Shown here one piece after another: positions 15,121-54,412 of a stretch of 64,000 bases of DNA. A program made the translations under genes and the position numbers. The stretch covers positions 8,829-72,828 of the forward strand of contig DASWKB010000004.1 in assembly GCA_036396895.1 (NCBI GenBank). The letters are read 5' to 3'. Origin of the DNA: a bacterium. Its GTDB lineage: Bacteria; Omnitrophota; Gorgyraeia; Aquiviventales; Aquiviventaceae. The notes under the pieces are model-generated. The model was not told the DNA's origin. It ran no database searches and saw nothing but the letters and a program-made list of their open reading frames with translations. Each line of letters begins with the position of its first letter. The first letter of the stretch is position 1.

Positions 15121-15200
15121 CGGTCGGAAGCCGGAAGGTGGACGCTGGATGTATCAACCGATCATTCCAGCCTCCAGCTTCCAGCTTCCAACTTCAGACC
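15121..15200. repeat. Word-built inverted repeat, GGAAGCT family
   Basis: Left arm GGTCGGAAGCCGGAAGGTGGACGCTGGATG. Right arm ATTCCAGCCTCCAGCTTCCAGCTTCCAACTTCAGACC, whose reverse complement is GGTCTGAAGTTGGAAGCTGGAAGCTGGAGGCTGGAAT. Confidence 0.8.
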
Positions 15201-15208
15201 AGGTAGTA

Positions 15209-16192
15209 TTACGGCGAAGAAGCGGCGCACCGGCGCAGGCGGTCCATGATGGCCAAGCCGAGCCCGCGCTCGGGAACAGGTTCTGCGACGATCAGGTCGA
15301 GCCCAAGAGCGTCAAGCCGCCTCAGGGCCGCGAAGAGGCCGGCGGCGGCTGTCTCCATATCTCCTTCCGGAGCAAGGAGTTCTACGCTCGCATAGCCATG
15401 CCGCGCGGGCGCTTCACGGTACCCCAGCAGGCCGACCCGGCAGGATCCGGCAGGCGGAACCTGGGAGGCGTCCAAAATCACAAGCGGAGTCTTGGTCGCA
15501 TAGTGGCGGCTGAGCTGCCCAGGCGAATCCGGGCGAACCGAGGCGGGAGTCCCCGGCGGCAGGATCCGCACCTCCCCCAGGACGTCCCGGACCGCTTCGA
15601 CGGAGATCCCGCCCGTGCGCAGGATCGCCGGCGGGTTCGTGACCAGCGTGACCACCGTGGATTCGAGCCCGACGGGGCACGGGCCGCCATCGAGAATCAG
15701 CTCCAGCTCCCCGCCCAGCTGGTCGGCCACGTGCGCGGCCGTCGTCGGGCTGACATAGCCGAACGGGTTGGCGCTCGGAGCCGCCACGGGCGTGCCGCAG
15801 GCGGCGAGCCACCTCCGGGTCGGCTCCGGCTCCGGAATTCTCACGGCGACCGTCTCGAGCCCCGCCGTCACGATATCGGGAATGGCGGGATGCTTCGGCA
15901 CGACGACGGTGAGCGGGCCAGGCCAGAACCGATCCGCCAGCTTCCGGAGCCCCTCCGGCCTTGAGGCCGCCACGCGCTCCAGGTCCCGCTCATCGGCCAG
16001 ATGCACGATCAAGGGGTCGAAGGCGGGGCGCCGCTTCACGGCGAAGATACGGGCCACCGCCTCCGCGTTGCGCGCGTCCGCGCCGAGGCCATAGACGGTC
16101 TCCGTCGGAAACGCCACCAGGCTCCCCCGGCGCAGCGCCGCCGCCGCGTCGCGCACGGCGTCCGGATCCGTCACCGGCAGGATGCGGGTCAT
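15209..16192 (-). CDS. tsaC: L-threonylcarbamoyladenylate synthase (Sua5/YwlC long form)
   Basis: Internal start MTRILPVTDPDAV...GSLVAFPTETVYGLGADA..FAVKRRP (ATG 16192, ATGA overlap with the upstream gene's stop). The longer listed ORF is an R-rich extension. Confidence 0.8.
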   Translation of the reverse strand: MTRILPVTDPDAVRDAAAALRRGSLVAFPTETVYGLGADARNAEAVARIFAVKRRPAFDPLIVHLADERDLERVAASRPEGLRKLADRFWPGPLTVVVPKHPAIPDIVTAGLETVAVRIPEPEPTRRWLAACGTPVAAPSANPFGYVSPTTAAHVADQLGGELELILDGGPCPVGLESTVVTLVTNPPAILRTGGISVEAVRDVLGEVRILPPGTPASVRPDSPGQLSRHYATKTPLVILDASQVPPAGSCRVGLLGYREAPARHGYASVELLAPEGDMETAAAGLFAALRRLDALGLDLIVAEPVPERGLGLAIMDRLRRCAASSP

Positions 16193-17121
16193 GGCTGCTT
16201 CGGCAGCCGGCGGCGCGCGATGAGGGACGCCGCCACCGAGGAGCCGATGAGCCCGGCGATGACCGACAGCGACACGCCGATCGGCACGTGCACGATGTCC
16301 GCCAGCAGCATCTTCACGCCGACGAAGACGAGCACGAGGCCGAGCCCGAACCTCAGATACGCAAGGCGGCCGATCGCGCCGGTGAGGACGAAGTACAGCG
16401 CGCGCAGGCCGAGAATGGCGAAGATGTTCGAGGTGTACACGATGAACGGATCCCGCGTCACCGCGAAGATCGCCGGGATCGAATCCACGGCGAAGACGAG
16501 GTCCGTCGTCTCGACCGCCACCAGGACCAGGAGCAGCGGGGTCGCCGCCCATCCGCCAGGCCGCCGCACGAGGAACCGCCCGGGTGAGTCCGTCGCGATC
16601 GGCAGCCACCGCCGCGCCAGGCGGATCACCGGGTTGCGCTCAGGGTCGACGTGCTGCGCCTGCTCGCGCAGCATCCGGACGCCCGTCACGATCAGGATGC
16701 CGCCGAACACGAAGATGATCCAGTGCGCGCGGGCGATGAGCGCGACCCCCGCGAAGATGAACGCCGCGCGCATCACCACCGCCCCGAGGATCCCCCAGAA
16801 GAGCACCCGGTGCTGGTCGGAGGGCGCGACGTGAAAATAGCTGAAAATCACCAGGAACACGAAGATGTTGTCGACGCTGAGGGATTTCTCGATGAGGTAC
16901 CCGGTGAGGAACTCGAGGCCCTTCGTGTGTCCGAAGTGCCAGGCCACGCCGAGATTGAAGAGGAGCGCGGACGCGATCCAGACGACCGTCCACAGGACGG
17001 CCTCGCGCATGCCGACGGCGCGGGGGCGGCGATGGACGACGCCCAGATCGACCGCGAGCATCACCGCGATGATCACGGTGAAGCCGATCCACCACGCAGG
17101 CGATCCCACGGTCTCGACCAT
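16189..17121 (-). CDS. TerC-family integral membrane protein
   Basis: LEFLTGYLIEKSLSVDNIFVFLVIF and DLVFAVDSIPAIFAVT motifs; multiple TM segments. Confidence 0.8.
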   Translation of the reverse strand: MVETVGSPAWWIGFTVIIAVMLAVDLGVVHRRPRAVGMREAVLWTVVWIASALLFNLGVAWHFGHTKGLEFLTGYLIEKSLSVDNIFVFLVIFSYFHVAPSDQHRVLFWGILGAVVMRAAFIFAGVALIARAHWIIFVFGGILIVTGVRMLREQAQHVDPERNPVIRLARRWLPIATDSPGRFLVRRPGGWAATPLLLVLVAVETTDLVFAVDSIPAIFAVTRDPFIVYTSNIFAILGLRALYFVLTGAIGRLAYLRFGLGLVLVFVGVKMLLADIVHVPIGVSLSVIAGLIGSSVAASLIARRRLPKQP

Positions 17122-17187
17122 GAGAGGGGCGGGGACCCCGCCGCGCGCGGCGGGATTCCCGATCAGGGGCGGCGGGGGCCCGCCGAC

Positions 17188-17433: not shown

Positions 17434-17445
17434 ACGCCTCCTGGT

Positions 17446-19941: not shown

Positions 19942-20011
19942 GTTCTCTGTGCCTCTGTGGTGTGGTGTTGGATCCTGACGTCCGATACAACGTGTTCTGT
20001 GCCTCTGTGTT
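19942..20011. repeat. CACAGAG-family words, two direct copies in CTCTGTG orientation
   Basis: GTTCTCTGTGCCTCTGTGGTGTGGTGTTGG ... GTTCTGTGCCTCTGTGTT. Related to the arms at 34901 and 45311. Confidence 0.7.
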
Positions 20012-21459: not shown

Positions 21460-21490
21460 CAGTCTTCCTCAGCGACCAGCAACCAGCAAC

Positions 21491-21574
21491 CAGAAGTTCT
21501 ACCGAGAAGCTGGAGGCTGGATTTCGCCGATTTCCTTGTTCCAGCTTCCAGCCTCTAGCTTCCAGCATCCGACC
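21491..21574. repeat. Word-built inverted repeat, GGAAGCT family
   Basis: Left CAGAAGTTCTACCGAGAAGCTGGAGGCTGGAT. Right TTCCAGCTTCCAGCCTCTAGCTTCCAGCATCCGACC. Preceded by a CAGCAAC tandem at 21471-21493. Confidence 0.75.
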
Positions 21575-21633
21575 TGAGATCTGGTTCCATGCTAGGCGTG
21601 ACGCGGCATCGGTTCCATGCGGGCGCGCCGCGG

Positions 21634-22035: not shown

Positions 22036-22050
22036 CGCGTCGTGACTGGT

Positions 22051-22140
22051 GCCAAATTCGGAATGGGGAATTCGGAATTCGGAATCTTCAGTAGTTGACC
22101 CGGTGATTCCGCATTCCCAATTCCGAATTCCGCATTTGGC
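22051..22140. repeat. Word-built inverted repeat, GGAAT-heptad family
   Basis: GCCAAATTCGGAATGGGGAATTCGGAATTCGGAATC - loop - GATTCCGCATTCCCAATTCCGAATTCCGCATTTGGC. 31/36 arm positions are complementary. Confidence 0.85.
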
Positions 22141-22150
22141 ATCGTCGTGC

Positions 22151-25094: not shown

Positions 25095-26477
25095 TTACTT
25101 GACAGATTTACGGAGGCGGGAAAGCCAGGCCTTGATGGTCCGTTCGTAGCCAAGGTCAGTCGGCTCGTAGTACCCGAGCGACGCGCCGGAAGGCACGTAG
25201 TCCTGCTTCACGTAGTGCTGAGCGCCCTCGTGCGCGTACTGGTAGCCGACCCCGCGCCCGAGCTGCTCTGCGCCTCGGAAGCTCGACCCTTTCAGATGGT
25301 CGGGCACCTCGAGCGTCCGGCCGGCTTTCACGTCTTTCAGCGCCCGCTCGATGCCAAGGTACGCCGCGTTCGATTTCGGCGCGCAGGCCACATAGACCGT
25401 CGCCTGCGCCAGCGGAATGCGGCACTCGGGCAGCCCGACGAATTCCGACGCGTGCAGCGCCGCCACCGCAAGCGCGAGCGCCTGCGGATCGGCGTTGCCG
25501 ACGTCCTCCGAGGCGCAGATGACGAGGCGGCGCGCGATGAACCGCGGGTCCTCGCCCGCGTAGATCATCTTGGCCAGCCAGTAGAGCGACGCGTCGGGAT
25601 CCGAGCCGCGCATGGACTTGATGTACGCCGAGATCGTATCGTGGTGCGCGTCGCCTTCCTGGTCATACACGACGGCCTTCTTCTGGATGGACTCCTCCGC
25701 GGCCTCGCGGCTGAGCACGACGGTGTCCGAGGCGTCGGGCGGGGTCGTCAGCACCGCAACCTCGAGCGCCTGCAGCGCGCGCCTGGCGTCGCCGTCGCAA
25801 ACGTCGGCCAGGTGCCGCAGCGCGTCGTCGTGCGCGTCGACGGCCCGCGCGCCGAGGCCGCGCTCGCGATCGGCGAGCGCCCGCGTGAGCAGCGTCATCA
25901 CGTCCTCCGCGGACAGCGGCTTGAACTCGCACACCAGCGACCGGGACAGGAGGGCCGAGGCGATCGTGAAGAACGGATTGGCGGTCGTCGCGCCGATCAG
26001 GATCGGATTGCCCTGCTCCACATCGGGCATCAGCACGTCCTGCTGCGCCCGGTTGAAGCGGTGGATTTCATCGAGAAACAGAATCGTCCGCCGCCCGTCA
26101 AGGCGCGCGCGGTCCTTGGCGCGCGTGATGGCGTCCCGGACCTCGCCCACGCCGGCGGCCGTCGCATTCAGCGGCTCCCAGTGCGCCTTCGTCCGGCCGG
26201 CGATCACGTGTGCGAGCGCGGTCTTGCCCGTCCCGGGCGGGCCGTAGAGCACGAGCGACGTCAGGCGGTCCGCTTCAATCGCGCGGCGCAGCAGCTTCCC
26301 CGGCCCGAGCAGGTGCGCCTGGCCCGCGAACTCCTCGAGCGTTCTGGGGCGCATCCGGGCCGCCAGCGGCTGCGCGGCGGCGGGGCCGGTTGCGGACGGC
26401 GCGGGGAACAGCGTGGGCTCCTGCATGGGTCCTCCGGATGAGAAAAACGCCCCGCGACTGCCGTGGGCGCCCGTCAT
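25095..26477 (-). CDS. rarA: Replication-associated recombination protein A (AAA+ ATPase)
   Basis: LAARMRPRTLEEFAGQ.HLLG, LYGPPGTGKTALA, FLDEIHRFN, and the MgsA C-terminal domain. The true start may be the internal MQEPT at 26426. Confidence 0.85.
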   Translation of the reverse strand: MTGAHGSRGAFFSSGGPMQEPTLFPAPSATGPAAAQPLAARMRPRTLEEFAGQAHLLGPGKLLRRAIEADRLTSLVLYGPPGTGKTALAHVIAGRTKAHWEPLNATAAGVGEVRDAITRAKDRARLDGRRTILFLDEIHRFNRAQQDVLMPDVEQGNPILIGATTANPFFTIASALLSRSLVCEFKPLSAEDVMTLLTRALADRERGLGARAVDAHDDALRHLADVCDGDARRALQALEVAVLTTPPDASDTVVLSREAAEESIQKKAVVYDQEGDAHHDTISAYIKSMRGSDPDASLYWLAKMIYAGEDPRFIARRLVICASEDVGNADPQALALAVAALHASEFVGLPECRIPLAQATVYVACAPKSNAAYLGIERALKDVKAGRTLEVPDHLKGSSFRGAEQLGRGVGYQYAHEGAQHYVKQDYVPSGASLGYYEPTDLGYERTIKAWLSRLRKSVK

Positions 26478-26702
26478 TGATGAACCCTTCCCTCATCAGG
26501 TGGGTATCCTCTCCAATCGGGTGAGTGCGTCCCGTGCGTGCTTGGGCATGCACGTCCGAGCGGAAGCCGGATTCCCGGTCACATCGTGTTGGCTCAAAAT
26601 GACAGCGCCTCACGCACAGCGCAGGGCATACGTAGCGTACCACCGGGCGTTGTCGTTGGCAAGGGGGGTCAGGGGGGATTCAGGCCGACCAGCAACCATG
26701 AC

Positions 26703-26727
26703 GGGGCGGGGGGCGGGGGGCGGGGGG
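26703..26727 (+). other. G-quadruplex-type motif, four G-runs separated by single C
   Basis: GGGGCGGGGGGCGGGGGGCGGGGGG read directly from the sequence. Confidence 0.5.
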
Positions 26728-26741
26728 CAATTTAACGTTCT

Positions 26742-26778
26742 GGTCGGAAGCTGGAAGCTAGAGGCTGGAAGCTGGAAT
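26742..26778. repeat. Single arm of the GGAAGCT family (forward orientation)
   Basis: GGTCGGAAGCTGGAAGCTAGAGGCTGGAAGCTGGAAT. Nearly identical to the reverse complement of the arm at 21539-21574. Confidence 0.8.
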
Positions 26779-26919
26779 TAGTAGGAGCGGACCATGATCC
26801 TGAATGTCTGTTCCAACGGTGACTGGCACTTTACTGGTGTCCGTTCAATGAACCATGATGGTGGTCCTCAGGGGATCGAATGAGAAAGTTGAATTCGTAT
26901 CCCGCACGAACCCGAGCGG

Positions 26920-27183
26920 CTAATCAATCCCCGGCCCGTGGAGATACGCGTGCGTCAGGCAGTGGCTCGTCCCACCGTACTGGTATTGGAGCACAATGTC
27001 TTCCTGGTCGTAGACGTACCGGGTGATCGCGCCGTTGACGTCTTTCTCGATCCGCCTCCCCAGGCCGTCGTAGCGGTAGCTGGCAAACGTTCCGTCAGGG
27101 ATATCAATCCTCGTGAGCTGGTTCTCGACGTCGTAGGTGTACGCCGTTGCGCCGGGGCATGGGGCGGGGGGCGCGTCATGCAA
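26920..27183 (-). pseudogene. Orphan RHS/YD-repeat protein fragment
   Basis: 87-aa ORF YTYDVENQLTRIDIPDGTFASYRYDGLGRRIEKDVNGAITRYVYDQEDIVLQY..YLHGPGID-stop. These are YD repeats, with no N-terminal domain, no core end and no toxin tip. Confidence 0.7.
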
Positions 27184-27193
27184 TGGTTGAATT

Positions 27194-27291
27194 GGTAGAG
27201 GATAGAAGGTGGACGGTGGAGGGTAGAAGGTAGAATTGCCACTTTGTACTTTCTATCTTCTATCTTCTACCTTCTACCTTCTATCATCTAT
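27194..27291. repeat. Word-built inverted repeat, GAAGGT family
   Basis: GGTAGAGGATAGAAGGTGGACGGTGGAGGGTAGAAGGTAGAA - loop - CTTTCTATCTTCTATCTTCTACCTTCTACCTTCTATCATCTAT. Confidence 0.8.
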
Positions 27292-27317
27292 ACGATTGCA
27301 TGGTCATTCCCGCCTCG

Positions 27318-27342
27318 TTCCAGCCTCCAGCTTCCAACCAGC
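27318..27342. repeat. Single arm of the GGAAGCT family (reverse orientation)
   Basis: GTTCCAGCCTCCAGCTTCCAACCAGC, inverted relative to the arm at 26742. Confidence 0.65.
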
Positions 27343-29350: not shown

Positions 29351-29367
29351 CAGGCAGAACAACCCAT

Positions 29368-29445
29368 GCCAAATGCGGAATGCGGAATGCGGAATGCGGA
29401 ATTACCCGCCATTCCGAATTCCCAATTCCGAATTCCCAATTTGGC
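29368..29445. repeat. Word-built inverted repeat, GGAAT-heptad family, between pheS and pheT
   Basis: GCCAAAT(GCGGAAT)x4 - TACCCGCC - ATTCCGAATTCCCAATTCCGAATTCCCAATTTGGC. 29/35 arm positions are complementary. Confidence 0.9.
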
Positions 29446-29459
29446 ACGATACGTCTTGG

Positions 29460-31799: not shown

Positions 31800-31857
31800 G
31801 ATTACACGGATTTTCGAACGGATTACACGGATTAAGCCTTCATCAATCCGTGTGATC
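31800..31857. repeat. GATTACACGGATT word: two direct copies plus one inverted copy
   Basis: GATTACACGGATT at 31800 and 31821. AATCCGTGTGATC at 31845-31857, overlapping the last codons and stop of thrS. Confidence 0.75.
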
Positions 31858-33618
31858 AACCTCGTGTTTGTCCTCGATAACGCGGGAGGCCAGGTCCGCC
31901 GCCGCCATCGCCCCGAGATCGCCCTCCCGTCGATGGCGGACCGCGACCGTGCCCGCCTCGGCTTCCCGCTTCCCGACCACCGCCATATACGGCACCTGCT
32001 GGAGCTGAGCGTCGCGGATCTTCGCCTGCATCCGTTCGTTGCGTTCATCGACCGACGCCCGCAGGCCGCGCGCCCGCAGTGCCTCGGCGATTGCGCGCGC
32101 GTAGCCGTGGACCGCCTCGCTCACCGGGATCACCGCCACCTGCACCGGAGCCAGCCACGCCGGCAGCGCGCCGGCGTAGTGCTCAAGCAGCACTCCGAAA
32201 AACCGCTCGACCGAGCCCCACAGCGCCCGGTGCACCATCAGCGGGCGCTGCGGCTTGCCCTCCTCGTCAATATACTCCAGGTTGAAGCGCGCCGGCAGAT
32301 TGAAGTCGAACTGTACCGTGGTCAGCTGCCAGGCCCGCCCGATCGCGTCGATGAGCTTGACGTCGATCTTCGGGCCGTAGAACGCCGCCTCGCCTTTCAT
32401 GAGCGTATAGGGGACCTTGAGGCGCTCAAGCGTGCTCGTCAGGGCGTCGGTGGCGCGGCGCCAGTCCTCCGGGTTGCCGGCGTAGTGCGCCGCCTCGCCC
32501 TCGTCCCAATCGGACAGCTCCACGACGTAGTCGTCGAACCCGAACGCCCGGAGCGTCTCCCAGGCGAAGCGGATGCATCCCTCCACCTCCGCCTCGATGT
32601 GGTCCGGACGGCAGAAAATGTGCGCGTCATCCTGGGTGAAGCCGCGCACCCGCATGAGCCCGTGAAGGACGCCCGAGCGCTCGTAGCGGTACACGGTGCC
32701 AAGCTCCGCCAGCCGGACGGGCAGCTCCCGGTAGCTGCGCAGGCGCGACTTGTAGATCAGGATGTGGCCCGGGCAGTTCATCGGCTTGAGCTGATACTGA
32801 GCCGTCTCGACCTCGATCGGCGCGAACATGTTGTCCCGGTAAAAGCTCGTATGCCCGCTGGTCTGCCACAGCTCCTCCCGCATGATGTGCGGCGTGTAGA
32901 CAAGGTCGTAGCCCCGCGCCAGGAGCTCGCGGCGGAGCCAGTCCTCCATGAGCGTGCGCACCAGCGCGCCCTTCGGATGCCAGAAGATGAGTCCGGGGCC
33001 GGCCGCCTCTTCGATGCTGAAGAGCTCAAGCGCGGTCCCCAGCTTGCGATGATCGCGGCGCTTCGCCTCCTCCAGCCGGTGGAGATGCCGATCGAGGTCC
33101 TCCTGAGTCAGGAACGCCGTCCCGTAGACGCGCTGCAGCTGGGGCCGGCGCTCGTCTCCGCGCCAGTACGCGCCCGCCAAGCTCAACAGCTTGAACGCCC
33201 GCACCTGGCCCGTCGAGGCCACATGCGGGCCCTCGCAGAGATCGACGAACTCGCCGTCGGTGTACAACGACACGCTCGCGTCCGGGATCCCCTCGATAAT
33301 CTCGAGCTTGTAGCGCTCGTTCCGCTCGCGGAAGAACGCCAGCGCCTCGTCCTTGCTCATGGAGGAGCGCACGAAGGGGTGGTCCTCCTCGACGATCTTG
33401 CGCATTTCGGCCTCAATGGCGCCGAGCGACTCCTCCGTCAGCGCCGCCGGCAGCTCGAGGTCGTAGTAGAACCCGTCCTCAATCGGCGGGCCGATCGCCA
33501 GCTTCGACTCCGGATGCAGCCGGCGGACCGCCTGCGCCATGATGTGCGCCGCGCTGTGCCTGAGCGCGTAGAGCGGATCCGTCTGCTTCCTGAGTTCTTT
33601 CTGGCCTGTGTGACCCAT
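31843..33618 (-). CDS. thrS: Threonine--tRNA ligase, short form without N-terminal TGS domain
   Basis: Starts close to the editing-domain motif LRHSAAHIMAQA, with CEGPHV further on. Class II core RVRGFTQDDAHIF, GRAWQLTTVQFDF. Start set at ATG 33618 because the listed start 33654 lies inside a repeat arm. Confidence 0.9.
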   Translation of the reverse strand: MGHTGQKELRKQTDPLYALRHSAAHIMAQAVRRLHPESKLAIGPPIEDGFYYDLELPAALTEESLGAIEAEMRKIVEEDHPFVRSSMSKDEALAFFRERNERYKLEIIEGIPDASVSLYTDGEFVDLCEGPHVASTGQVRAFKLLSLAGAYWRGDERRPQLQRVYGTAFLTQEDLDRHLHRLEEAKRRDHRKLGTALELFSIEEAAGPGLIFWHPKGALVRTLMEDWLRRELLARGYDLVYTPHIMREELWQTSGHTSFYRDNMFAPIEVETAQYQLKPMNCPGHILIYKSRLRSYRELPVRLAELGTVYRYERSGVLHGLMRVRGFTQDDAHIFCRPDHIEAEVEGCIRFAWETLRAFGFDDYVVELSDWDEGEAAHYAGNPEDWRRATDALTSTLERLKVPYTLMKGEAAFYGPKIDVKLIDAIGRAWQLTTVQFDFNLPARFNLEYIDEEGKPQRPLMVHRALWGSVERFFGVLLEHYAGALPAWLAPVQVAVIPVSEAVHGYARAIAEALRARGLRASVDERNERMQAKIRDAQLQQVPYMAVVGKREAEAGTVAVRHRREGDLGAMAAADLASRVIEDKHEVDHTD

Positions 33619-33638
33619 TATCGCCCGCTGTGCCGCGT

Positions 33639-33795
33639 CATGCGTAACGCGCAACGCGTAACGTGCGTCCGCATTCGAGCGCCTCGAGTTCCGGGACCAA
33701 CAGCCACCGCCGAGTGCGGCTCGACGGCGCGCGCTATTCGGAGCATGTCGCTGTCCATGTCAATCGCCACGTTGCGCGTTTCACGTTACGCGACG
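33639..33795. repeat. CGTAACG-word inverted arms separated by ~100 nt, upstream of thrS
   Basis: Left CATGCGTAACGCGCAACGCGTAACGTGCG (33639-33667). Right GCCACGTTGCGCGTTTCACGTTACGCGACG (33766-33795). Confidence 0.6.
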
Positions 33796-33893: not shown

Positions 33894-33910
33894 CTACTCA
33901 GATATCCCAT

Positions 33911-33998
33911 GCCAAATGGAGAATGCCGAATTCGGAATGCGGAATATTCGTGTTGGAGTTCAATTCCGCATTCCGAACTCCGAATTCCGCATTGGAAA
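33911..33998. repeat. Word-built inverted repeat, GGAAT-heptad family, between tRNA-Val and tRNA-Leu
   Basis: GCCAAATGGAGAATGCCGAATTCGGAATGCGGAAT - loop - ATTCCGCATTCCGAACTCCGAATTCCGCATTGGAAAT. Confidence 0.85.
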
Positions 33999-34082
33999 TG
34001 CCGGGGGTGGGAGTCGAACCCACACGCCCTTGCGGGCACAAGATCTTAAGTCTCGCGCGTCTCCCAGTTCCGCCACCCCGGC
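33999..34082 (-). tRNA. tRNA-Leu (anticodon TAA), long variable arm, no encoded CCA
   Basis: GCCGGGG/CCCCGGC acceptor, CGAGA-CTTAAGA-TCTTG anticodon arm, variable arm TGCCCGCAAGGGCGT, GTGGG-TTCGACT-CCCAC T-arm. Confidence 0.9.
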
Positions 34083-34091: not shown

Positions 34092-34164
34092 CCTGTGTAA
34101 TGTGTGATGTGTAATGGCTGGCCGAACTTGCATTACACATTACACATTGAACATTACACAACAG
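34092..34164. repeat. Word-built inverted repeat, TGTAATG family, between tRNA-Leu and tRNA-Cys
   Basis: CCTGTGTAATGTGTGATGTGTAATGG - loop - CATTACACATTACACATTGAACATTACACAACAG. Confidence 0.85.
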
Positions 34165-34255: not shown

Positions 34256-34900
34256 TCACGGGTGCCGGAGACGCCAGAGCGCCTCGATGCGGCCGAACAG
34301 CCGCCGGGCCGCTTCGGGTTTTCCGATCCTCCCCAGCGGCTCGGCCGCGCAGCCGCGCTCAAGCAGCCAGGCGCGGATCGGCCGGCGGCCGAACGGCGCC
34401 CCGGTCGGTTCGCTGCGCTGGGCCAGCACGAGATCGAGACGCTTCTCCCGGAGTTTCCGCCCGGCCCGCGCGGGCACCGACCGGCTCTCGATCGCGAAAC
34501 CCGCGCGCACCTGACCGGGCCGGACCGGCAGTCCCGCGATCACGTCCGGCGTCGGCGCAAGGCACAGCGTCAGCCGGCCCGCGCGCCGGAGTTTGCCCGC
34601 CGTTCGCCGCACCGGGCGAAAATCCGCCACCGCGGCCGCCATTACGATCGCGTCCGCGCGCGGCGCTTCGCGGCGCAACGCGCGCGCCAAGTCCGCGGCG
34701 CGCTCGATCGACACGCGCCGCACGCCCGCCGGCAGCGGCTCCGATACGGGTCCGCTCACGACGGTCACCCGGTGGCCGCGCCGCCGCGCCTCGCGCGCGA
34801 GCGCCGCGCCCATGTATCCGGTCGAATAGTTCGACAGATACCGGACGGCGTCGATCGGCTCGCGGGTCGGGCCCGAGGCGATCAGCACCTTCATCTTCAT
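34256..34900 (-). CDS. coaB: Phosphopantothenate--cysteine ligase (CoaB) as a separate gene
   Basis: MKMKVLIASGPTREPIDAVRYLSNYSTGYMG...AAAVADFRP. Start at the in-frame ATG 34900; upstream residues of the listed ORF are a translated repeat. Confidence 0.8.
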   Translation of the reverse strand: MKMKVLIASGPTREPIDAVRYLSNYSTGYMGAALAREARRRGHRVTVVSGPVSEPLPAGVRRVSIERAADLARALRREAPRADAIVMAAAVADFRPVRRTAGKLRRAGRLTLCLAPTPDVIAGLPVRPGQVRAGFAIESRSVPARAGRKLREKRLDLVLAQRSEPTGAPFGRRPIRAWLLERGCAAEPLGRIGKPEAARRLFGRIEALWRLRHP

Positions 34901-35017
34901 CACAGAGATCACAGAGCGCGGACGACACCACAGAGACCACAGTGACCCACGACGCACCAGCGGTCACAGAAGACGTGCTCCATGCCTCTGTGAAGGCGCT
35001 GTGACATCTCTGGTGTG
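34901..35017. repeat. Word-built inverted repeat, CACAGAG family, between coaC and coaB
   Basis: CACAGAGATCACAGAGCGCGGACGACACCACAGAGACCACAGTGAC ... GCCTCTGTGAAGGCGCTGTGACATCTCTGGTGTG. Confidence 0.8.
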
Positions 35018-35042
35018 CAGCTGATTGTTCCGCCGCGCTCTC

Positions 35043-39852: not shown

Positions 39853-39862
39853 AGTTCTCCAA

Positions 39863-39979: not shown

Positions 39980-39986
39980 CCTGTGA

Positions 39987-41522: not shown

Positions 41523-41529
41523 CAGAGCC

Positions 41530-41763: not shown

Positions 41764-42071
41764 AATGTCACGACCTCCTCCTGGAACTCCGACGGCGGGC
41801 ACGTCTCCGCCGGCGGCCGGATCAGGATGACGATATCGTTTCCTGGAAGGAACCGCCTGTTGGAATCGAACAGGGCTGTGCGCAACACACGCTTCAACCT
41901 GTTGCGCGACACGGCTCGGCGAATGCCGCGGTGAGTTCGTAACCCGATTCGCGCGTCAAGCCGGTCCGTCCCGACGAACCCGACGGATGCCGCACGTCCG
42001 TGCACCCATGATCCGCACCGGGACACCTCGCGAAATGCCTTGGTCCGCTTCAACGGCACCGTCGGGGACAT
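41724..42071 (-). CDS. rnpA: Ribonuclease P protein component
   Basis: RAVSRNRLKRVLRTAL motif; position between rpmH and yidD. Confidence 0.8.
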   Translation of the reverse strand: MSPTVPLKRTKAFREVSRCGSWVHGRAASVGFVGTDRLDARIGLRTHRGIRRAVSRNRLKRVLRTALFDSNRRFLPGNDIVILIRPPAETCPPSEFQEEVVTLCTRAGLISRVPH

Positions 42072-42116
42072 GCGGCTCCGGCATGCGAATGGCGCGGTGA
42101 GATTCCGCGCGGGACG

Positions 42117-42257
42117 TCACTCGGGTATGAGCTGCCAGCGGCCCTTGCGACGGCGCCGCTGGAGGGTCTTCCGGCCGCCGGATGTCGCCATCCGTCTCAG
42201 GAAGCCATGCGTTCTGGCGCGCTTGAGGTTGGATTTGTTCTTCAGGTGTTTTTTCAT
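42117..42257 (-). CDS. rpmH: 50S ribosomal protein L34 (not in the ORF track, 46 aa)
   Basis: Manual translation: [46 protein letters not shown]-stop. Confidence 0.9.
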
Positions 42258-42307
42258 GTTGCGCGCATTATACGGACTCGGATGCGCGCAACGCAAGGAG
42301 AAACAGC

Positions 42308-42336
42308 TTGAGCGCGGTTAACGCACTCGCTATAAT
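42308..42336 (+). promoter_or_regulatory. Candidate sigma70-type promoter for dnaA
   Basis: TTGAGC - 17 nt - TATAAT, 42 nt upstream of the dnaA ATG. Confidence 0.5.
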
Positions 42337-42377
42337 AGTCGGGCTTCCAAGGGACACCGCCACACGGCTGCCGGTGC

Positions 42378-45026: not shown

Positions 45027-45311
45027 ATGGCTGAGCGGATCGGCGCGGTCATCAGGGAATTGATCGGCCAGGCGCAGGCCGCCCAGGCGCCGCTCTTTGC
45101 GATTCAGCGGCAGTGGCGGGAGCTGGTGGGCCCGGCGCTGGCGGCGCACTCGAAGCCCGTGCGCCTTGCGCGGGGCCGGCTGACGGTTCATGTGCACCAG
45201 CCCGGGGACGCCTTCGCGTTCAACTACCGGAGGCGGGACATCCTCGAGGCGCTCAGGCGCGAACCCGCCTGGCAGGTCAGCGAGCTCGTGATCCGGCCCG
45301 GTTCCCTATGA
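45027..45311 (+). CDS. DUF721-type small protein (occupies the slot between dnaN and gyrB; no recF here)
   Basis: 94 aa from the in-frame ATG 45027: W.ELVGPALAAHSKPVRLARGRLTVHV..AFAFNYRRRDILEAL. Confidence 0.6.
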   Translation: MAERIGAVIRELIGQAQAAQAPLFAIQRQWRELVGPALAAHSKPVRLARGRLTVHVHQPGDAFAFNYRRRDILEALRREPAWQVSELVIRPGSL

Positions 45312-45400
45312 CACAGAGGCACAGAGAGCCGAGCACACCACAGAGGACACAGAAACGAACGTCGGGACGCCTCTGTATGGATGCTGTGACCTCTGTGGCG
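45311..45400. repeat. Word-built inverted repeat, CACAGAG family
   Basis: ACACAGAGGCACAGAGAGCCGAGCACACCACAGAGGACACAGAA - loop - GCCTCTGTATGGATGCTGTGACCTCTGTGGCG. Confidence 0.8.
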
Positions 45401-50720: not shown

Positions 50721-50819
50721 GGTCTGAAGCTGGAAACTGGAGGATGGAAGCTAGAACTCGCGGTGGAGAATTGAGCGAGCTCTTTCGAGCTTCTAGCGTC
50801 CAGCCTCCAGCTTCCGACC
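50721..50819. repeat. Word-built inverted repeat, GGAAGCT family, downstream of gyrA
   Basis: GGTCTGAAGCTGGAAACTGGAGGATGGAAGCTAGAAC - loop - TTCGAGCTTCTAGCGTCCAGCCTCCAGCTTCCGACC. Confidence 0.85.
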
Positions 50820-50839
50820 ATGGATTTTCACGGATTCGT

Positions 50840-50900
50840 GTCCCCATCGTCTAATGGTCAGGACACCCCGCCTTCGGCGGGGCGGTGGGGGTTCGATTCC
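50840..50900 (+). pseudogene. Truncated tRNA-Glu-derived element (no 3' T-stem or acceptor strand; anticodon arm replaced by a 7-bp stem with a TTCG loop)
   Basis: GTCCCCATCGTCTAATGGTCAGGACA and CGGTGGGGGTTCGATTCC are identical to the intact tRNA-Glu at 51170. The middle reads CCCCGCC-TTCG-GGCGGGG. It ends at TTCGATTCC, directly abutting the ATG at 50901. Confidence 0.75.
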
Positions 50901-51161
50901 ATGGTGCATACCGTCTATATTCTTAAGAGCTTGCGTACAGGCCGCCGGTACATTGGAGTGACTCAGGATCTCCAACGTCGTCTTGCAGACCACAATCGCG
51001 GGAAAAACAAGTCTGTGCGCGGTCGTGGACCTTACGAAGTTATCTGGACTGAGGAATGCGCAACCCGAGATGAAGCCGTACAGCGCGAGAAGCAGCTCAA
51101 GCGACAAAAGGGCGGAGAAGGGTTAGGGCGGCTTCTTGCCGCGAACGCGCGAGGCGAATAA
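50901..51161 (+). CDS. Small GIY-YIG (URI-domain) nuclease family protein
   Basis: MVHTVYILKSLRTGRRYIGVTQDLQRRLADHNRG...RGPYEVIWTEECATRDEAVQREKQLKRQK. The pattern is GIY/YIG, R, E. The listed ORF from 50820 reads through the tRNA-like element. Confidence 0.8.
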   Translation: MVHTVYILKSLRTGRRYIGVTQDLQRRLADHNRGKNKSVRGRGPYEVIWTEECATRDEAVQREKQLKRQKGGEGLGRLLAANARGE

Positions 51162-51169
51162 CAATTCGT

Positions 51170-51241
51170 GTCCCCATCGTCTAATGGTCAGGACAAGAGC
51201 CTTTCGAGCTCTCGGTGGGGGTTCGATTCCCCCTGGGGACA
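51170..51241 (+). tRNA. tRNA-Glu (anticodon TTC), no encoded CCA
   Basis: GTCCCCA/TGGGGAC acceptor, AGAGC-CTTTCGA-GCTCT anticodon arm, GGGGG-TTCGATT-CCCCC T-arm. Confidence 0.9.
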
Positions 51242-51273
51242 CGGGACTCTTCGGCACGAAGTCAGAAGTCGCC

Positions 51274-51307
51274 GGGAAGCTGGAGGATGGACGCTAGAAG
51301 CTGGAAT
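51274..51307. repeat. Single arm of the GGAAGCT family (forward orientation)
   Basis: GGGAAGCTGGAGGATGGACGCTAGAAGCTGGAAT. Near-complement of the arm at 50784-50819. Confidence 0.8.
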
Positions 51308-51364
51308 TATCGAACGGTGGAGGCGACTCCCGGTTTCCGGCTTCTCGCCCGCTCTTAACCGCTG

Positions 51365-52438: not shown

Positions 52439-52468
52439 CGGCGCCGTCCGGAAGGAGCCACGAACATC

Positions 52469-54310
52469 ATGTGCGGCATCGTCGGATATGTGGGGTTCCG
52501 GGAGAGCGTGGAGACGATCCTCGAAGCGCTCGCCCGGCTCGAGTACCGGGGGTATGACTCGGCGGGCATCGCCGTTGTGGACGGCGGCAAGCTCGCCATC
52601 CGCCGCAAGGCGGGGAAGCTGCAGAGCCTGATCGAGGACCTGCGCCGGCGGCCCATCCGCGGCTCGGTCGGCATCGGGCATACGCGCTGGGCCACGCACG
52701 GGGAGCCCTCGGAAGCCAACGCGCACCCGCACGCGGACACCCACGGCCGCCTCGCCGTGGTCCATAACGGCATCATCGAGAATTACGCGCCGCTCAAGGA
52801 GCGGCTCCTCGGCCGCGGCCACGTGTTCCGCTCCAAGACGGACACGGAGGTCATCGTCCACCTCGTCGCCGAGTACGCGAAGCGGATGGGCGTCGCCCGG
52901 GCGTTCCGTCGGGCGCTGCGAGACCTGCAGGGCTCCTACGCGGCGTGTCTCGTGAGCGCCGATGAGCCCGGACGGATTTTCGGCGCCCGCCACGGCAGCC
53001 CGCTCATCGTGGGCATCGGCGCCAAGGAAGCGTTCTTCGCCAGCGACGTGCCGGCCATCCTCGGCTGGACGAAGCGGGTGGTCTATCTCAACGACGGCGA
53101 CGTGGTGGAGCTCACCGCCTCCGGGCTCACGGTGACCGACCTGGCGGGACGCCGGGTCGCGCGCCGTCCGGCGCGGGTGACGTGGGACATCGGCTCGGCC
53201 CGCAAGGAGGGCTTCGCACACTACATGCTGAAGGAGATCCACGAGCAGCCGGCCGCCGTCGAGCAGACGCTCGCCAACCGGCTCGACGCCGCGAAGGGCC
53301 GCCTCCAGTTCGACGCCCGCACGCGGCGGTTTCTCGCCGGGCTGCATGCGCAGGAGAAGCTCATCATCATCGCCTGCGGCACCGCCTATCACGCGGGCCT
53401 GGTCGGGGAGTACATGCTGGAGGAGTTCGCGGGGATTCCGGTGGACGTGGACCTGGCTAGCGAGTTCCGCTACCGCGGGCCCATGCTGGACCGGCGCACG
53501 ACGGTGATCGCCATCACGCAGTCCGGGGAGACCGCCGACACGCTCGCGGGCGTGCGTCTCGCGAAAGAGCGCGGGGCCAAGGTACTCGCCGTCTGCAACG
53601 TCATGGGATCGTCCATCGCCCGCGAGGCGGACGCGGTCCTGTACACGCACGCGGGGCCGGAGATCGCCGTCGCCTCGACCAAGGCGTACACGGCCCAGCT
53701 CACGGCGCTCACGCTCTTGACGCTCGCGCTGGCGAAGCGGCGCGGGCGGTTCTCGCGCGCCCGCTGGCGGCAGCTGCTCGGCGGTCTCGCGGCGCTGCCG
53801 GGGCTGATCGAGCGGACGCTCAAGCGGACCGAGGCGGACGCGCGCACCGCGGCGGCGAAGTACGCCGGATGCCGGAACTTCTACTACCTGGGCCGGCGGT
53901 ACAACTACCCGAGCGCGCTCGAGGGAGCGCTGAAACTCAAGGAGATCTGCCCGCTCATCCACGCCGAGGGCTACGCGTCCGGGGAGATGAAGCACGGCCC
54001 CATCTCGCTCATCCGCATGGGCTGGCCCGTCGTCGTCCTGGCGCCCCAGTCCCCGGTGTACGAGAAGGTGGTGTCGAATATCGAAGAGGTCCGGGCGCGG
54101 CGGGGGGAATGTATCGTCGTCGCGTCCGAAGGGGACGCGCAGATCCGCCGCTGCGCCGACAGTCTGATGACGATCCCGAAGACCGAGGAGCTCTTCTCGC
54201 CGATTCTCGCGGCGGTGCCGCTGCAGCTGTTCGCCTATTACGTCGCCTGCGAGAACAAGTGCGACGTGGATCAGCCGCCCAACCTGGCCAAGAGCGTCAC
54301 CGTGGAGTAG
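52469..54310 (+). CDS. glmS: Glutamine--fructose-6-phosphate aminotransferase
   Basis: MCGIVGYVG, RLEYRGYDSAGIAV, HTRWATHG, two SIS domains, C-terminal DQPPNLAKSVTVE. Confidence 0.95.
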   Translation: MCGIVGYVGFRESVETILEALARLEYRGYDSAGIAVVDGGKLAIRRKAGKLQSLIEDLRRRPIRGSVGIGHTRWATHGEPSEANAHPHADTHGRLAVVHNGIIENYAPLKERLLGRGHVFRSKTDTEVIVHLVAEYAKRMGVARAFRRALRDLQGSYAACLVSADEPGRIFGARHGSPLIVGIGAKEAFFASDVPAILGWTKRVVYLNDGDVVELTASGLTVTDLAGRRVARRPARVTWDIGSARKEGFAHYMLKEIHEQPAAVEQTLANRLDAAKGRLQFDARTRRFLAGLHAQEKLIIIACGTAYHAGLVGEYMLEEFAGIPVDVDLASEFRYRGPMLDRRTTVIAITQSGETADTLAGVRLAKERGAKVLAVCNVMGSSIAREADAVLYTHAGPEIAVASTKAYTAQLTALTLLTLALAKRRGRFSRARWRQLLGGLAALPGLIERTLKRTEADARTAAAKYAGCRNFYYLGRRYNYPSALEGALKLKEICPLIHAEGYASGEMKHGPISLIRMGWPVVVLAPQSPVYEKVVSNIEEVRARRGECIVVASEGDAQIRRCADSLMTIPKTEELFSPILAAVPLQLFAYYVACENKCDVDQPPNLAKSVTVE

Positions 54311-54317
54311 CACCCGG

Positions 54318-54412
54318 CGAGAAGGTGGAAGGTGGAAGATGGACGATGGAACGCGGGACGACACATGCAGGCGCCGCCACCACCTTCTACCATCTACACG
54401 CTCCCTTCTCGG
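54318..54412. repeat. Word-built inverted repeat, GAAGGT family
   Basis: CGAGAAGGTGGAAGGTGGAAGATGGACGATGGAAC - loop - GCCACCACCTTCTACCATCTACACGCTCCCTTCTCGG. Confidence 0.75.

What the first reader, a model, noticed from the sequence alone, without database searches (positions are those of the whole stretch)
15121..54412. At least seven unrelated families of word-built inverted repeats fill the intergenic gaps, including inside normally tight operons
Seventeen loci (listed as repeat features) share an architecture but not a sequence.

- **Architecture:** each 25-45-nt arm is a run of 3-5 tandem, slightly degenerate 6-7-nt words. The partner arm is the same run reverse-complemented after a 10-20-nt loop.
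- **GGAAT heptads with two variable leading nt:** 22051, 29368, 33911. All arms begin GCCAAAT.
- **GGAAGCT/GGAGGCT:** 15121, 21491, 26742/27318, 50721, 51274. Arms begin GGTCKGAAG and end GCTGGAAT.
- **Other words:** GAAGGTR (27194, 54318); CACAGAG (19942, 34901, 45311); TGTAATG (34092); CGTAACG (33639/33766); GATTACACGGATT (31800).
- **Mismatch pattern:** in 29368-29445 the arms agree at 29/35 positions and all six mismatches fall on the two variable heptad positions. In 22051-22140 the figure is 31/36 with the same rule. The predicted stems are therefore 5-bp GGAAT/ATTCC helices interrupted by regular 1-2-nt internal loops.
- **Context:** the elements are AT-richer than the ~68% GC background and have no U-tracts. 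They lie between co-directional genes, including pheS|pheT, coaC|coaB and tRNA|tRNA. They also generate spurious ORFs such as PNSEFRIPNSEF.

A single REP family or simple intrinsic terminators do not explain this diversity and periodicity.
Basis: seen in the sequence. Interest (0 to 1): 0.75.

Follow-up and report, generated by a model that had tools for sequence, protein, structure and literature searches.

The report
Hairpin repeats built from seven-base words
Most gaps between genes in this uncultured bacterium are filled by long DNA hairpins whose arms are tandem seven-base words, a repeat type reported once in Xanthomonas but here with many word families, and in other phyla even sitting in frame inside genes.

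Summary
Period-7 tandem arrays number 18 in the window against 0.7 expected, and no other period that is not a multiple of 3 is enriched. Sixteen of 23 intergenic gaps of at least 50 nt between 15 and 55 kb carry an element. About 10 of the 17 loci are real hairpins; 19942, 34901, 51274 and 54318 are not.

The elements are not the repeats tied to the window's RAYT gene, which has its own 11-nt-word palindromes. They are not canonical terminators and match no Rfam family. They form a lineage-specific set of dispersed, nested palindromes made of heptanucleotide repeats.

The nearest described case is the convergent GGGAATC heptamer pairs of Xanthomonas. Relatives keep the architecture with other words, including in the same pheS|pheT gap.

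New points:
- The G-rich arm is almost always 5′ (33 of 35 in independent sets).
- Folding is equally good on both strands.
- In soil Gemmatimonadota the same hairpins lie in frame inside genes, and whole words have been replaced in both arms with pairing kept.

The best reading is self-propagating quasi-palindromic repeat DNA shaped by slippage and arm-to-arm correction. Any RNA role is unproven.

The parts
15121..15200 (.). GGAAGCT/GGAGGCT-word hairpin between the Sua5 stop and the next gene
   Evidence: RNA fold -57.2 kcal/mol, z -8.1. Pattern hits.
19942..20010 (.). Two direct copies of TTCTCTGTGCCTCTGTG. This is a half element, not a hairpin.
   Evidence: Sequence. Fold z +1.07.
21470..21575 (.). 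CAGCAAC heptad block (21470-21493) followed by a GGAAGCT-word hairpin (21498-21575), between JAB and TusA
   Evidence: Arrays. Fold z -3.3. The same block order occurs in Ga0214471 copies.
22050..22141 (.). GGAAT-heptad hairpin with TGCCAAAT/ATTTGGCA ends, between the permease stop and the JAB start
   Evidence: Inverted repeat I3 is 86% complementary. Fold z -7.3. Arms agree at 31/36 positions.
26703..26778 (.). (GGGGCGG)3.7 block followed by the 5' arm of a GGAAGCT-family element (26742-26778). Its partner arm lies at 27303-27340.
   Evidence: TRF. Sequence. Pattern hits at 26746-26776 and 27319-27335.
27154..27340 (.). G-rich heptads (27154-27176), the GAAGGTR-word hairpin (27177-27302) and the 3' arm of the GGAAGCT element (27303-27340). 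Together these form a nested mosaic downstream of pheT.
   Evidence: Inverted repeats I1/I2. Fold z -6.9; the + strand folds better, at -71.5 kcal/mol. Sequence.
29367..29446 (.). GGAAT-heptad hairpin filling the pheS|pheT gap. It lies 13 nt after the pheS stop and 16 nt before the pheT ATG at 29350.
   Evidence: Sequence. Inverted repeat I5. Fold z -6.3. Arms agree at 29/35 positions. The left arm is a perfect 7-nt array and the right arm a perfect 14-nt array.
31800..31860 (.). GATTACACGGATT-word hairpin overlapping the thrS stop, upstream of infC
   Evidence: Sequence. Fold z -2.3. The same word forms a hairpin in L225.
33634..33792 (.). CGTAACG-word arms (33634-33663 and 33768-33792) around a 104-nt spacer, between tRNA-Val and the thrS start
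   Evidence: Inverted repeats I14/I23. Arrays.
33908..34000 (.). GGAAT-heptad hairpin between tRNA-Val and tRNA-Leu
   Evidence: Inverted repeat I4. Fold z -4.8. tRNA genes.
34092..34160 (.). TGTAATG-word hairpin between tRNA-Leu and tRNA-Cys
   Evidence: Inverted repeats I21/I22. Fold z -3.6.
34899..35030 (.). CACAGAG nonamer-word region in the coaC|coaB gap. CACAGAG copies come first and CTCTGTG copies later, but it is not a convincing hairpin.
   Evidence: TRF period 9. Fold z 0.06.
45311..45400 (.). CACAGAG-word imperfect inverted repeat downstream of dnaN
   Evidence: Sequence. Fold z -2.3.
50721..50819 (.). GGAAGCT-word hairpin 16 nt after the gyrA stop and 18 nt before a truncated tRNA-Glu
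   Evidence: Inverted repeat I6. Fold z -5.1. Sequence.
51274..51310 (.). GGAAGCT-family 5' arm only (half element), after tRNA-Glu
   Evidence: Pattern hits. Fold z -1.2.
54318..54412 (.). GAAGGTG-word array with a degenerate partner arm, filling the gap between glmS and the methylase gene
   Evidence: Array. Fold z -1.35 on the sense strand and -45.6 kcal/mol on the antisense strand.

Best explanation
**What they are.** The loci are copies of a lineage-specific set of non-coding, dispersed quasi-palindromes. Each arm is a tandem array of one 7-nt word (9-nt in two families). They belong to the same class as the convergent heptamer pairs of Xanthomonas. In this genome there are at least seven words, and they are often nested into mosaics.

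**How they most likely work.**
1. *Shown:* whole elements are copied to new sites. Paralogous copies share terminal variant words, loops and flanks.
2. *Shown as a pattern, mechanism inferred:* each arm gains and loses words by replication slippage. This gives perfect 7-nt or 14-nt arrays and copies that differ in word number.
3. *Shown as a pattern, mechanism inferred:* the two arms are kept complementary at five of every seven positions. Whole words can be replaced in both arms. The most economical cause is intramolecular template switching on the hairpin during replication (quasi-palindrome correction), possibly with selection for pairing added.
4. *Inferred:* because the stem folds back on itself, an insertion leaves the flanking stop codon and start codon about 10-16 nt from the stem base. 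It is therefore tolerated between cistrons, between tRNA genes, and, for words free of stop codons, in frame inside genes.

Once transcribed, each element gives a hairpin of -40 to -57 kcal/mol in either direction of transcription. Any host role, such as protecting 3' ends, acting as a processing site or pausing RNA polymerase, would be secondary and is unproven.
For: **Period 7 and hairpins.** Enrichment is specific to period 7. The hairpins fold far better than shuffles.

**Dispersal.**
- All three GGAAT copies in the window carry TGCCAAAT/ATTTGGCA-type ends.
- More than 112 metagenome contigs carry that exact end.
- Fifteen Ga0214471 loci (114 kb) carry the window's words: GGAAT, GGAAGCT, GAAGGTR, CGTAACG, CATTACA, GGGGCGN, AACCAGC and GATTACACG.
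- Their paralogous copies share the loop CACCTGCGGTTTGA and the flanks but differ in heptad number. Some have outer arms of AACCAGC words.

**Slippage.** The left arm at 29372-29402 is a 100% perfect 7-nt array. The right arm is a 100% perfect 14-nt array.

**Arm correction or selection.**
- Of 120 ComF orthologues from Gemmatimonadota, 84 keep a 30-aa in-frame insert, in four complementary word types.
- DNA of all four types folds at -60 to -81 kcal/mol.
- Nine base pairs show changes on both sides, against 1.4 in shuffles (0 of 500 shuffles reach this).
- A second in-frame copy is 6-8 times more conserved than its flanking coding sequence.

**Both strands behave alike.** The sense strand folds no better than the antisense strand: 10 against 19, p = 0.09.

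**Recurrence in relatives.** Different words occupy the same pheS|pheT gap in L129, L140 and L146. Hairpins lie in frame in the pheT linker of L123, L124 and L126.

**Gap filling.** 16 of 23 gaps carry an element.

**Precedent.** Xanthomonas heptamer pairs (PMC4692102). Heptanucleotides are the commonest long simple repeats, attributed to polymerase slippage (PMC4679880). Template switching at quasi-palindromes is documented in E. coli (PMC7202029).
Against: - No transposition mechanism was found. There are no target-site duplications, no conserved GTAG/CGTC tag and no associated transposase.
- No relative is close enough to show a filled site against an empty site. The next PheS is only 70% identical.
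- If arm-to-arm correction were efficient, the two variable positions should also become complementary. They stay mismatched.
- One in-frame copy evolves more slowly than its host gene. Word arms stay conserved while loops diverge. Both look like purifying selection on the nucleotide sequence, which a purely selfish or neutral model does not predict.
- The strong rule that the G-rich arm is 5' is not explained by slippage plus template switching.
Confidence: 0.55

Rival explanations
1. They are REP/REPIN elements mobilised by a RAYT (Y1/HUH) transposase.
For: They are high-copy, imperfect palindromes, mostly between genes and arranged in mosaics like BIMEs. The window encodes a Y1_Tnp protein. 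Genomes can hold several pairs of RAYT genes and REP families (own knowledge; PMC3116915 listed).
Against: That RAYT gene is flanked by a different palindrome, GGTATCAGATACGTATCTGATACC, on both sides. This arrangement normally marks the cognate repeat. No heptad family has a conserved GTAG or CGTC tag. No RAYT homologue occurs in about 3 Mb of loci that carry heptad hairpins. The arms are 30-45 nt and repetitive, unlike the 20-40-bp REP units.
Confidence: 0.1
2. They are host-selected RNA stem-loops. They would act as bidirectional terminators or pause sites without a U-tract, or as intercistronic processing and stabilising hairpins of the RNase III or REP-stabiliser type. The pyrimidine-rich 3' arm would give a weak RNA:DNA hybrid that stands in for a U-tract.
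For: - The hairpins are very stable.
- They begin 0-16 nt after stop codons or tRNA 3' ends and end 9-18 nt before the next start or tRNA.
- Canonical terminators are not enriched in this region.
- The rule of a G-rich 5' arm and a pyrimidine-rich 3' arm holds for transcription from either strand.
- Positions recur across lineages with different words.
- Pairing is kept through compensatory changes.
- The Xanthomonas repeats lie close to upstream gene ends and are transcribed.
Against: - G·U pairs give no advantage to the sense strand.
- Elements lie between pheS and pheT and between tRNA genes, where strong termination would be harmful.
- The same hairpins persist in frame inside coding regions, where translating ribosomes would unwind them.
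- Conserved words rather than free covariation are not what pure selection on structure predicts.
- There are no RNA data.
Confidence: 0.25
3. They are arrays of binding sites for a protein, or for a non-B DNA structure such as a G-quadruplex, that reads a 7-nt register. Examples would be one cold-shock-type OB fold per heptamer, or G4 formation as proposed for GGGAATC.
For: Five of seven positions are conserved and two are free in every word. Arms are conserved while loops diverge. Heptamer binding by cold-shock proteins and G4 formation have been proposed for other heptamer repeats. (GGGGCGG)n blocks are present.
Against: At least seven different words in one genome would need many binding factors. 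Most words have no G-runs (TGTAATG, CGTAACG, GATTACACG). The words are paired in a stem, which hides single-strand binding sites. Words are replaced wholesale between orthologues.
Confidence: 0.07
4. They are assembly artefacts of a short-read metagenome assembly.
For: The window comes from a MEGAHIT-type contig (k141 name). Repeats can be mis-assembled.
Against: The elements are internal to a contig of at least 60 kb. The same families occur in independent samples and assemblies. Orthologous copies are conserved across samples and kept in frame inside genes.
Confidence: 0.01

Closest known systems
Xanthomonas GGGAATC heptameric repeats (Rehm et al. 2015, PMC4692102)
   Same: The unit is 7 nt and the word is almost the same (GGGAATC against GGAATNN). 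Copies are mostly intergenic and lie between co-directional genes. There are 70-75 pairs in convergent orientation that can form stem-loops, that is, with the G-rich arm 5'. Positions are conserved between species while length and sequence vary.
   Different: Xanthomonas has one word per genome, read as a G-quadruplex former. The window has at least seven words, most without G-runs. It also has nested mosaics, conserved terminal variant words and, in other phyla, in-frame copies in genes with compensatory replacement of whole words. The host here is a different phylum (Omnitrophota-like).
REP / BIME / REPIN elements of Proteobacteria
   Same: Short imperfect palindromes in high copy number between genes. 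They have species-specific sequences and mosaic arrangements, and sit inside operons. The E. coli REP consensus also has the G-rich arm 5' (own knowledge).
   Different: There is no heptad substructure in REPs. REPs carry GTAG/CGTC tags and pair with a RAYT gene (PMC3733652, PMC2817692, listed). Neither feature is met here.
Rickettsia palindromic elements (RPE)
   Same: Palindromic repeats that also insert in frame into protein-coding genes and are translated (own knowledge; MITE review PMC10969869 listed). This matches the ComF, ~800-aa protein and pheT cases.
   Different: RPEs are 100-150 bp, are not built from tandem words and are restricted to Rickettsia. No compensatory replacement of whole words has been described for them.
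Cyanobacterial STRR heptamers and Beggiatoaceae TAACTGA repeats (PMC4679880)
   Same: Tandem heptanucleotides that are abundant in intergenic regions, often just upstream of start codons, shared across distant phyla and of unknown function.
   Different: Those are almost always direct arrays. Only one inverted set was found among 170 in the 'Maribeggiatoa' genome. The window's arrays are mostly inverted pairs.
Intrinsic (Rho-independent) terminators
   Same: A stable stem-loop shortly after a stop codon.
   Different: The window's stems are 30-45 nt with regular internal loops. They are AT-richer than the genome, lack a U-tract, and lie inside operons and between tRNA genes.

Membership tests
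REP/REPIN-RAYT system | The cognate RAYT (Y1 transposase) gene is flanked by copies of the same repeat | tested here: not met
   The Y1_Tnp gene at 4871-5458 is flanked at 4734-4783 and 5425-5476 by GTATCAGATAC-word palindromes, not by heptad hairpins. No RAYT homologue occurs in any fetched locus.
REP/REPIN-RAYT system | A conserved GTAG or CGTC tetranucleotide at one end of the palindrome | tested here: not met
   Tags near the ends are inconsistent within families. In the GGAAT family, one copy has CGTC outside the element and two have none.
REP/REPIN-RAYT system | A short imperfect palindrome, in high copy number, lying between genes | tested here: met
   The window has 18 arrays in 64 kb and the related contigs 64 arrays in 114 kb. 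All are intergenic once spurious ORF extensions are discounted.
MITE | Terminal inverted repeats with target-site duplications and a related autonomous IS element | tested here: not met
   Flanks of the GGAAT and GGAAGCT copies show no direct duplication. No parent IS element was found. The inverted repeat spans the whole element rather than only its ends.
Intrinsic terminator | A GC-rich stem of 5-12 bp followed by a U-tract | tested here: not met
   No T-run follows any stem. Terminator-like sites are fewer than in shuffles.
Heptanucleotide long simple repeats in convergent pairs (Xanthomonas GGGAATC type) | Tandem 7-nt units, intergenic, with two arrays on opposite strands in convergent orientation | tested here: met
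   compared with the description read.
Heptanucleotide long simple repeats in convergent pairs (Xanthomonas GGGAATC type) | G-runs able to form G-quadruplexes | tested here: not met
   Only the GGGGCGG blocks have runs of at least three G. GGAAT, GGAAGCT and GAAGGTG have GG only. TGTAATG, CGTAACG and GATTACACG have none.
Any curated RNA family (Rfam 15) | A match at the family's gathering score | tested here: not met
   Only 6S RNA and four tRNAs matched in the window.
Rickettsia palindromic elements | In-frame insertion of the palindrome into protein-coding genes | tested here: met
   This holds for relatives, not for the window's heptad copies. Examples are the pheT linker of L123, L124 and L126 and the ComF-like and ~800-aa proteins of Gemmatimonadota. 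There is no sequence relationship to RPEs, so this is an analogy only.

The most novel reading that the evidence does not exclude
Heptad-built hairpins would be a cross-phylum class of elements, found in an Omnitrophota-like lineage, Planctomycetota, Gemmatimonadota, Xanthomonas and some viral contigs. Their arm complementarity, five-of-seven word conservation and strict polarity (G-rich arm 5', C-rich arm 3') would be actively maintained, even inside open reading frames. That would point either to a dedicated but unknown mechanism or to a conserved function. Candidate mechanisms are a hairpin-specific mobilising or correcting enzyme, or a replication process with a 7-nt step. A candidate function is a transcription or processing signal that works in both directions and must not expose a C-rich arm first.
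Probability: 0.3. Interest if true: 0.8.

Novelty: new variant of a known kind. Interest (0 to 1): 0.6.

Why it matters
- Heptanucleotides are the commonest long simple repeats in prokaryotes, yet neither their origin nor their role is known.
- This window, together with the related loci, gives a tractable system. It offers many word families in one genome, orthologous sites that hold different words, in-frame copies whose peptide sequence reports the DNA word, a clear polarity rule, and compensatory replacement of whole arms.
- These features allow direct tests of whether such repeats are driven by replication errors (slippage plus template switching) or selected as signals.
- Practically, the elements create false ORF extensions, for example the 693-aa 'pheT' ORF. 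They insert peptides into essential proteins. They may also break assemblies, so annotators of uncultured genomes need to recognise them.

Tried and rejected
- **RAYT link.** Rejected.
- **Rfam families.** None match the elements.
- **Canonical terminators.** Not enriched.
- **Filled against empty sites in close relatives.** Not possible. The other contig holding this pheS is identical to the window. The next PheS is 70% identical.
- **RNA-specific selection through G·U pairs.** The sense strand has no advantage.
- **Depletion from convergent gene gaps.** A first count gave 0 of 16. It came from crude gene calls, and real convergent gaps do hold such hairpins. The idea was dropped.
- **Genome-wide co-variation of words within one Gemmatimonadota genome.** There were too few elements per locus to test.
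- **Target-site duplications.** None seen.
- **Literature search by word strings.** Only unrelated primer matches came back. No paper on Omnitrophota or Gemmatimonadota repeats was found.
- **G-quadruplex as a general explanation.** Rejected because most words lack G-runs.

Full report
**Source and setting.** The window is a metagenome contig. An ENA contig carries the same pheS and is 100% identical over 21 kb. The PheS protein is HEX9779663.1, labelled 'MAG TPA [bacterium]', on a 118.5-kb contig. The best genome matches to PheS are Candidatus Omnitrophota MAGs at 66-68% identity. The next protein in 5.8 billion is 70% identical. The lineage is therefore isolated and probably Omnitrophota-like. 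The window spans the replication origin region, with parB and parA, a 2.5-kb low-GC gap, then dnaA, dnaN, gyrB and gyrA. Cumulative GC skew reaches its minimum there. Genes run away from the origin on both sides.

**Checking the observation.** Tandem arrays of period 7 number 18 against 0.7 in dinucleotide shuffles. Periods 4, 5, 8, 10 and 13 are at background, and periods 6, 9 and 12 reflect coding. The GGAAT-heptad and GGAAGCT patterns give 10 and 25 hits against 0 and 0.36 expected. All 11 mismatches lie on the two variable positions of the heptad, with a chance probability of about 1e-6. The elements are 52% GC in a 66% GC region and are not followed by T-runs. The true pheT start is the ATG at 29350 (MKVPLEWLKEF). 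The 693-aa ORF that runs through the element is an artefact of a repeat that contains no stop codons. Sixteen of 23 gaps of at least 50 nt between 15 and 55 kb hold an element. The element usually makes up most of the gap: 80 of 109 nt, 92 of 115, 91 of 105 and 95 of 111. Without the elements these junctions would be as tight as their neighbours.

**Which loci are real hairpins.** Six loci fold with z-scores of -4.8 to -8.1. Four fold with z of -2.3 to -3.6. Four do not fold convincingly. These are 19942 (direct repeats only), 34901, 51274 (one arm only) and 54318. Two families, CACAGAG and GATTACACG, have a 9-nt period.

**What the elements are not.**
- *Not RAYT-associated repeats.* The window's Y1_Tnp (RAYT-like) gene at 4871-5458 is bracketed by its own palindromes. 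These are made of the 11-nt word GTATCAGATAC, at 4734-4783 and 5425-5476. That is the usual mark of a RAYT gene's cognate repeat. The heptad families have no consistent GTAG or CGTC tag. No RAYT homologue occurs in about 3 Mb of fetched loci that carry heptad hairpins.
- *Not a known RNA family.* Rfam finds only 6S RNA and tRNAs.
- *Not canonical terminators.* Terminator-like sites with a T-run are fewer than in shuffles.
- *Not assembly artefacts.* The same families occur in independent samples.

**Families are dispersed and mosaic.**
- All three GGAAT copies in the window start and end with the variant word GCCAAAT.
- Fifteen stretches from one metagenome (Ga0214471, 114 kb) do not overlap the window. 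They carry its words: GGAAT, GGAAGCT/GGAGGCT, GAAGGTR, CGTAACG, CATTACA, GGGGCGN, AACCAGC and GATTACACG, in 64 arrays. Apart from isolated single matches elsewhere, this combination was seen only there and in three further contigs, not in the 80 loci from other genomes.
- Paralogous copies share the loop (CACCTGCGGTTTGA) and unique flanking segments but differ in the number of heptads. Some are the tip of palindromes about 230 nt long, whose outer arms are AACCAGC words.
- The window's region 26703-27340 is such a mosaic. It contains a (GGGGCGG)n block, then a GGAAGCT arm. About 525 nt follow, holding an Rhs-repeat gene fragment, G-rich heptads and a GAAGGTR hairpin. The partner GGAAGCT arm closes it.
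- Whole elements are therefore copied to new sites, and the arms then change by units of seven. Slippage is also visible at 29368: the left arm is a perfect 7-nt array and the right arm a perfect 14-nt array.

**Relatives keep the architecture but not the words.** Omnitrophota and Planctomycetia MAGs fetched through PheS carry period-7 arrays far more often than the Clostridia or Gammaproteobacteria loci in the same set. Their words are different: ATTGTCG, TCGAGGC, AGGGGNA, AGACCNN, TAGCGNA, GTTAATG and AGCTTTC. The pheS|pheT gap holds a heptad hairpin in L129, L140 and L146 as well as in the window. In L146 the same word fills four successive gaps of the infC-rpmI-rplT-pheS-pheT operon. In L123, L124 and L126 heptad arrays or hairpins lie in frame inside pheT. 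They sit in the linker between the N-terminal domain and the B3_4 domain.

**In-frame copies and compensatory word replacement.** Two groups of soil contigs (GC about 0.7) retrieved by the GGAAT pattern carry the hairpin inside genes. One gene is a ComF-like phosphoribosyltransferase, with the insert between NVAGAF and LVLVDDV. The other encodes a protein of about 800 aa. One ComF cluster member is annotated Gemmatimonadota (PYO64300.1).
- Among 120 ComF orthologues of 78-100% identity, 84 keep a 30-aa insert. It occurs in four types:
  - AMRNAKCGMRN...SAFRIPHSAL
  - ETRNAEGGTRN...SAFRVPSSAF
  - QVRNGECGVRS...SALRIPHSAL
  - ELRIGDCGLRI...SAIRNPKSAM
- The DNA behind these is GGAAT/ATTCC, GGAAC/GTTCC, GGAGT/ACTCC and GGATT/AATCC respectively. 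All four fold at -60 to -81 kcal/mol over the same 129 nt.
- On nine aligned sequences, nine pairs change on both sides against 1.4 in shuffles (0 of 500), and 95% of cells pair against 26-50% when the partner is slid.
- In the other gene the hairpin is 6-8 times more conserved than the flanking coding sequence, 0.023 against 0.13-0.19 pairwise difference. Within ComF type A the arms are conserved while the loop diverges.
- Shorter variants of 19-26 aa that lack an arm also exist, so decay does occur.

**Two general rules.**
1. *Polarity.* The arm 5' of the loop is purine- and G-rich in 6 of 6 window pairs, 19 of 19 Ga0214471 pairs and 8 of 10 pairs in relatives with unrelated words. That totals 33 of 35, p = 4e-8. 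The figures are 62 of 63 and 26 of 30 in the sets selected by pattern. Because an inverted repeat reads the same on both strands, this rule holds for transcription or replication in either direction. 'Convergent' GGGAATC pairs in Xanthomonas follow the same rule.
2. *Strand symmetry.* Folding is not better on the sense strand: 10 against 19, p = 0.09. G·U pairs therefore give no sign of selection on the mRNA strand specifically.

**Interpretation.** The elements combine traits of three known things:
- long heptanucleotide simple repeats, the commonest class in prokaryotes and attributed to polymerase slippage (PMC4679880);
- the convergent heptamer pairs of Xanthomonas (PMC4692102);
- interspersed palindromes of the REP/BIME or Rickettsia RPE kind.

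I consider them most likely self-propagating quasi-palindromic repeat DNA. Copies spread by an unknown route. The arms turn over by slippage. Complementarity is restored by template switching on the hairpin, a process documented for quasi-palindromes in E. coli (PMC7202029). The fold-back shape makes insertions tolerable between cistrons, between tRNA genes and, for stop-free words, within genes.

This model does not explain three things: the persistent mismatches at the two variable positions, the slower-than-host evolution of one in-frame copy, and the polarity rule. These keep open a selected role. One possibility is a hairpin signal that works in both directions of transcription. Another, which is my speculation, is a need to avoid exposing a C-rich, Rho-attracting arm before its partner is made. 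No RNA data were available to test this.

**Novelty.** I found no description of these elements in Omnitrophota, Planctomycetota or Gemmatimonadota, nor of the word strings themselves. The Xanthomonas paper is a clear precedent for a single-word version. The points that appear new within the literature I could search are:
- the multi-word mosaic repertoire;
- the polarity rule across unrelated words;
- the recurrence at orthologous gaps with different words;
- the in-frame copies with compensatory whole-word replacement.

Noticed in passing
window 4734-5476: A RAYT-like Y1_Tnp gene (4871-5458, +) lies in a lower-GC stretch. It is bracketed by two perfect palindromes built from four tandem copies of the 11-nt word GTATCAGATAC. 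No other copy of this palindrome occurs in the window.
   Followed up: partly
window 29070-29130 (within pheT, - strand): A GC-rich 28-nt-arm inverted repeat sits in the pheT linker, where relatives carry in-frame heptad hairpins. In the window the N-terminal domain (frame of the ATG at 29350) and the B3_4 domain (frame of ORF 27366-29447) are in different frames. About 19 residues that include the conserved CxRYIGR motif are missing. A similar palindrome (GGGCCAGCCCCTGAGGG...CCTGAAGGGGGCTGGGCC) occurs in L294. This could be a real lesion or an assembly error.
   Followed up: partly
window 50838-51242: A second tRNA-Glu-like gene (50838-50905) is cut off in its T-arm by an ORF (50901-51162, MVHTVYILKS...) that looks like a small GIY-YIG nuclease (not checked against Pfam). 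An intact tRNA-Glu (51170-51242) with the same 5' half follows directly.
   Followed up: no
window 26920-27183 (-): An 87-aa ORF with one RHS repeat (Pfam E = 1.8e-9), apparently a gene fragment, lies between the two arms of a GGAAGCT-family element. Its ATG sits in the stem base of the GAAGGTR hairpin.
   Followed up: partly
window 26445-26630 (-): A 6S RNA gene (Rfam 86.9 bits) lies directly downstream of the mosaic repeat region and upstream of mgsA.
   Followed up: no
window 39853-42377: A 2.5-kb region of 49-56% GC lies between parA and dnaA at the minimum of cumulative GC skew. It has several promoter-like sites, only small ORFs and no heptad element. It is presumably oriC.
   Followed up: no
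window 33-4697 (+): A 1554-aa ORF in the lower-GC (about 0.62) left end of the window has no Pfam match.
   Followed up: no
L123 12412-12500; L124 12221-12330; L126 3035-3067: In Omnitrophota MAGs, heptad arrays and hairpins are translated in frame as the linker of PheT. Examples are RENGKWKMENRK, encoded by (GAAAATG)4.7, and RGSRLEVRGKG...HEPRAS.
   Followed up: yes
L202, L206, L228, L250, L271, L290, L291, L314-L316 (ComF-like gene); L203, L212, L237, L292 and others (~800-aa protein gene): Soil Gemmatimonadota carry GGAAT-type heptad hairpins in frame inside two unrelated genes. In ComF the word has been replaced in both arms at least three times while the 30-aa length is kept.
   Followed up: yes
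viral contigs L011, L028, L041, L044, L046 and others: Many IMG/VR contigs carry direct (GGAATCA)n arrays next to a conserved GCCGGGCTCG...GGCCTAGGAC segment. Others mix GGAATGC arrays with CACAGAG words (L012). Only 57 of 288 arrays there have an inverted partner.
   Followed up: partly
L146 9109-11212: The same word (TAGCGTA/CTATACG) fills four successive gaps of the infC-rpmI-rplT-pheS-pheT operon of one Omnitrophota MAG. The same word also occurs in the pheS|pheT gap of L129, a MAG labelled Planctomycetia.
   Followed up: partly
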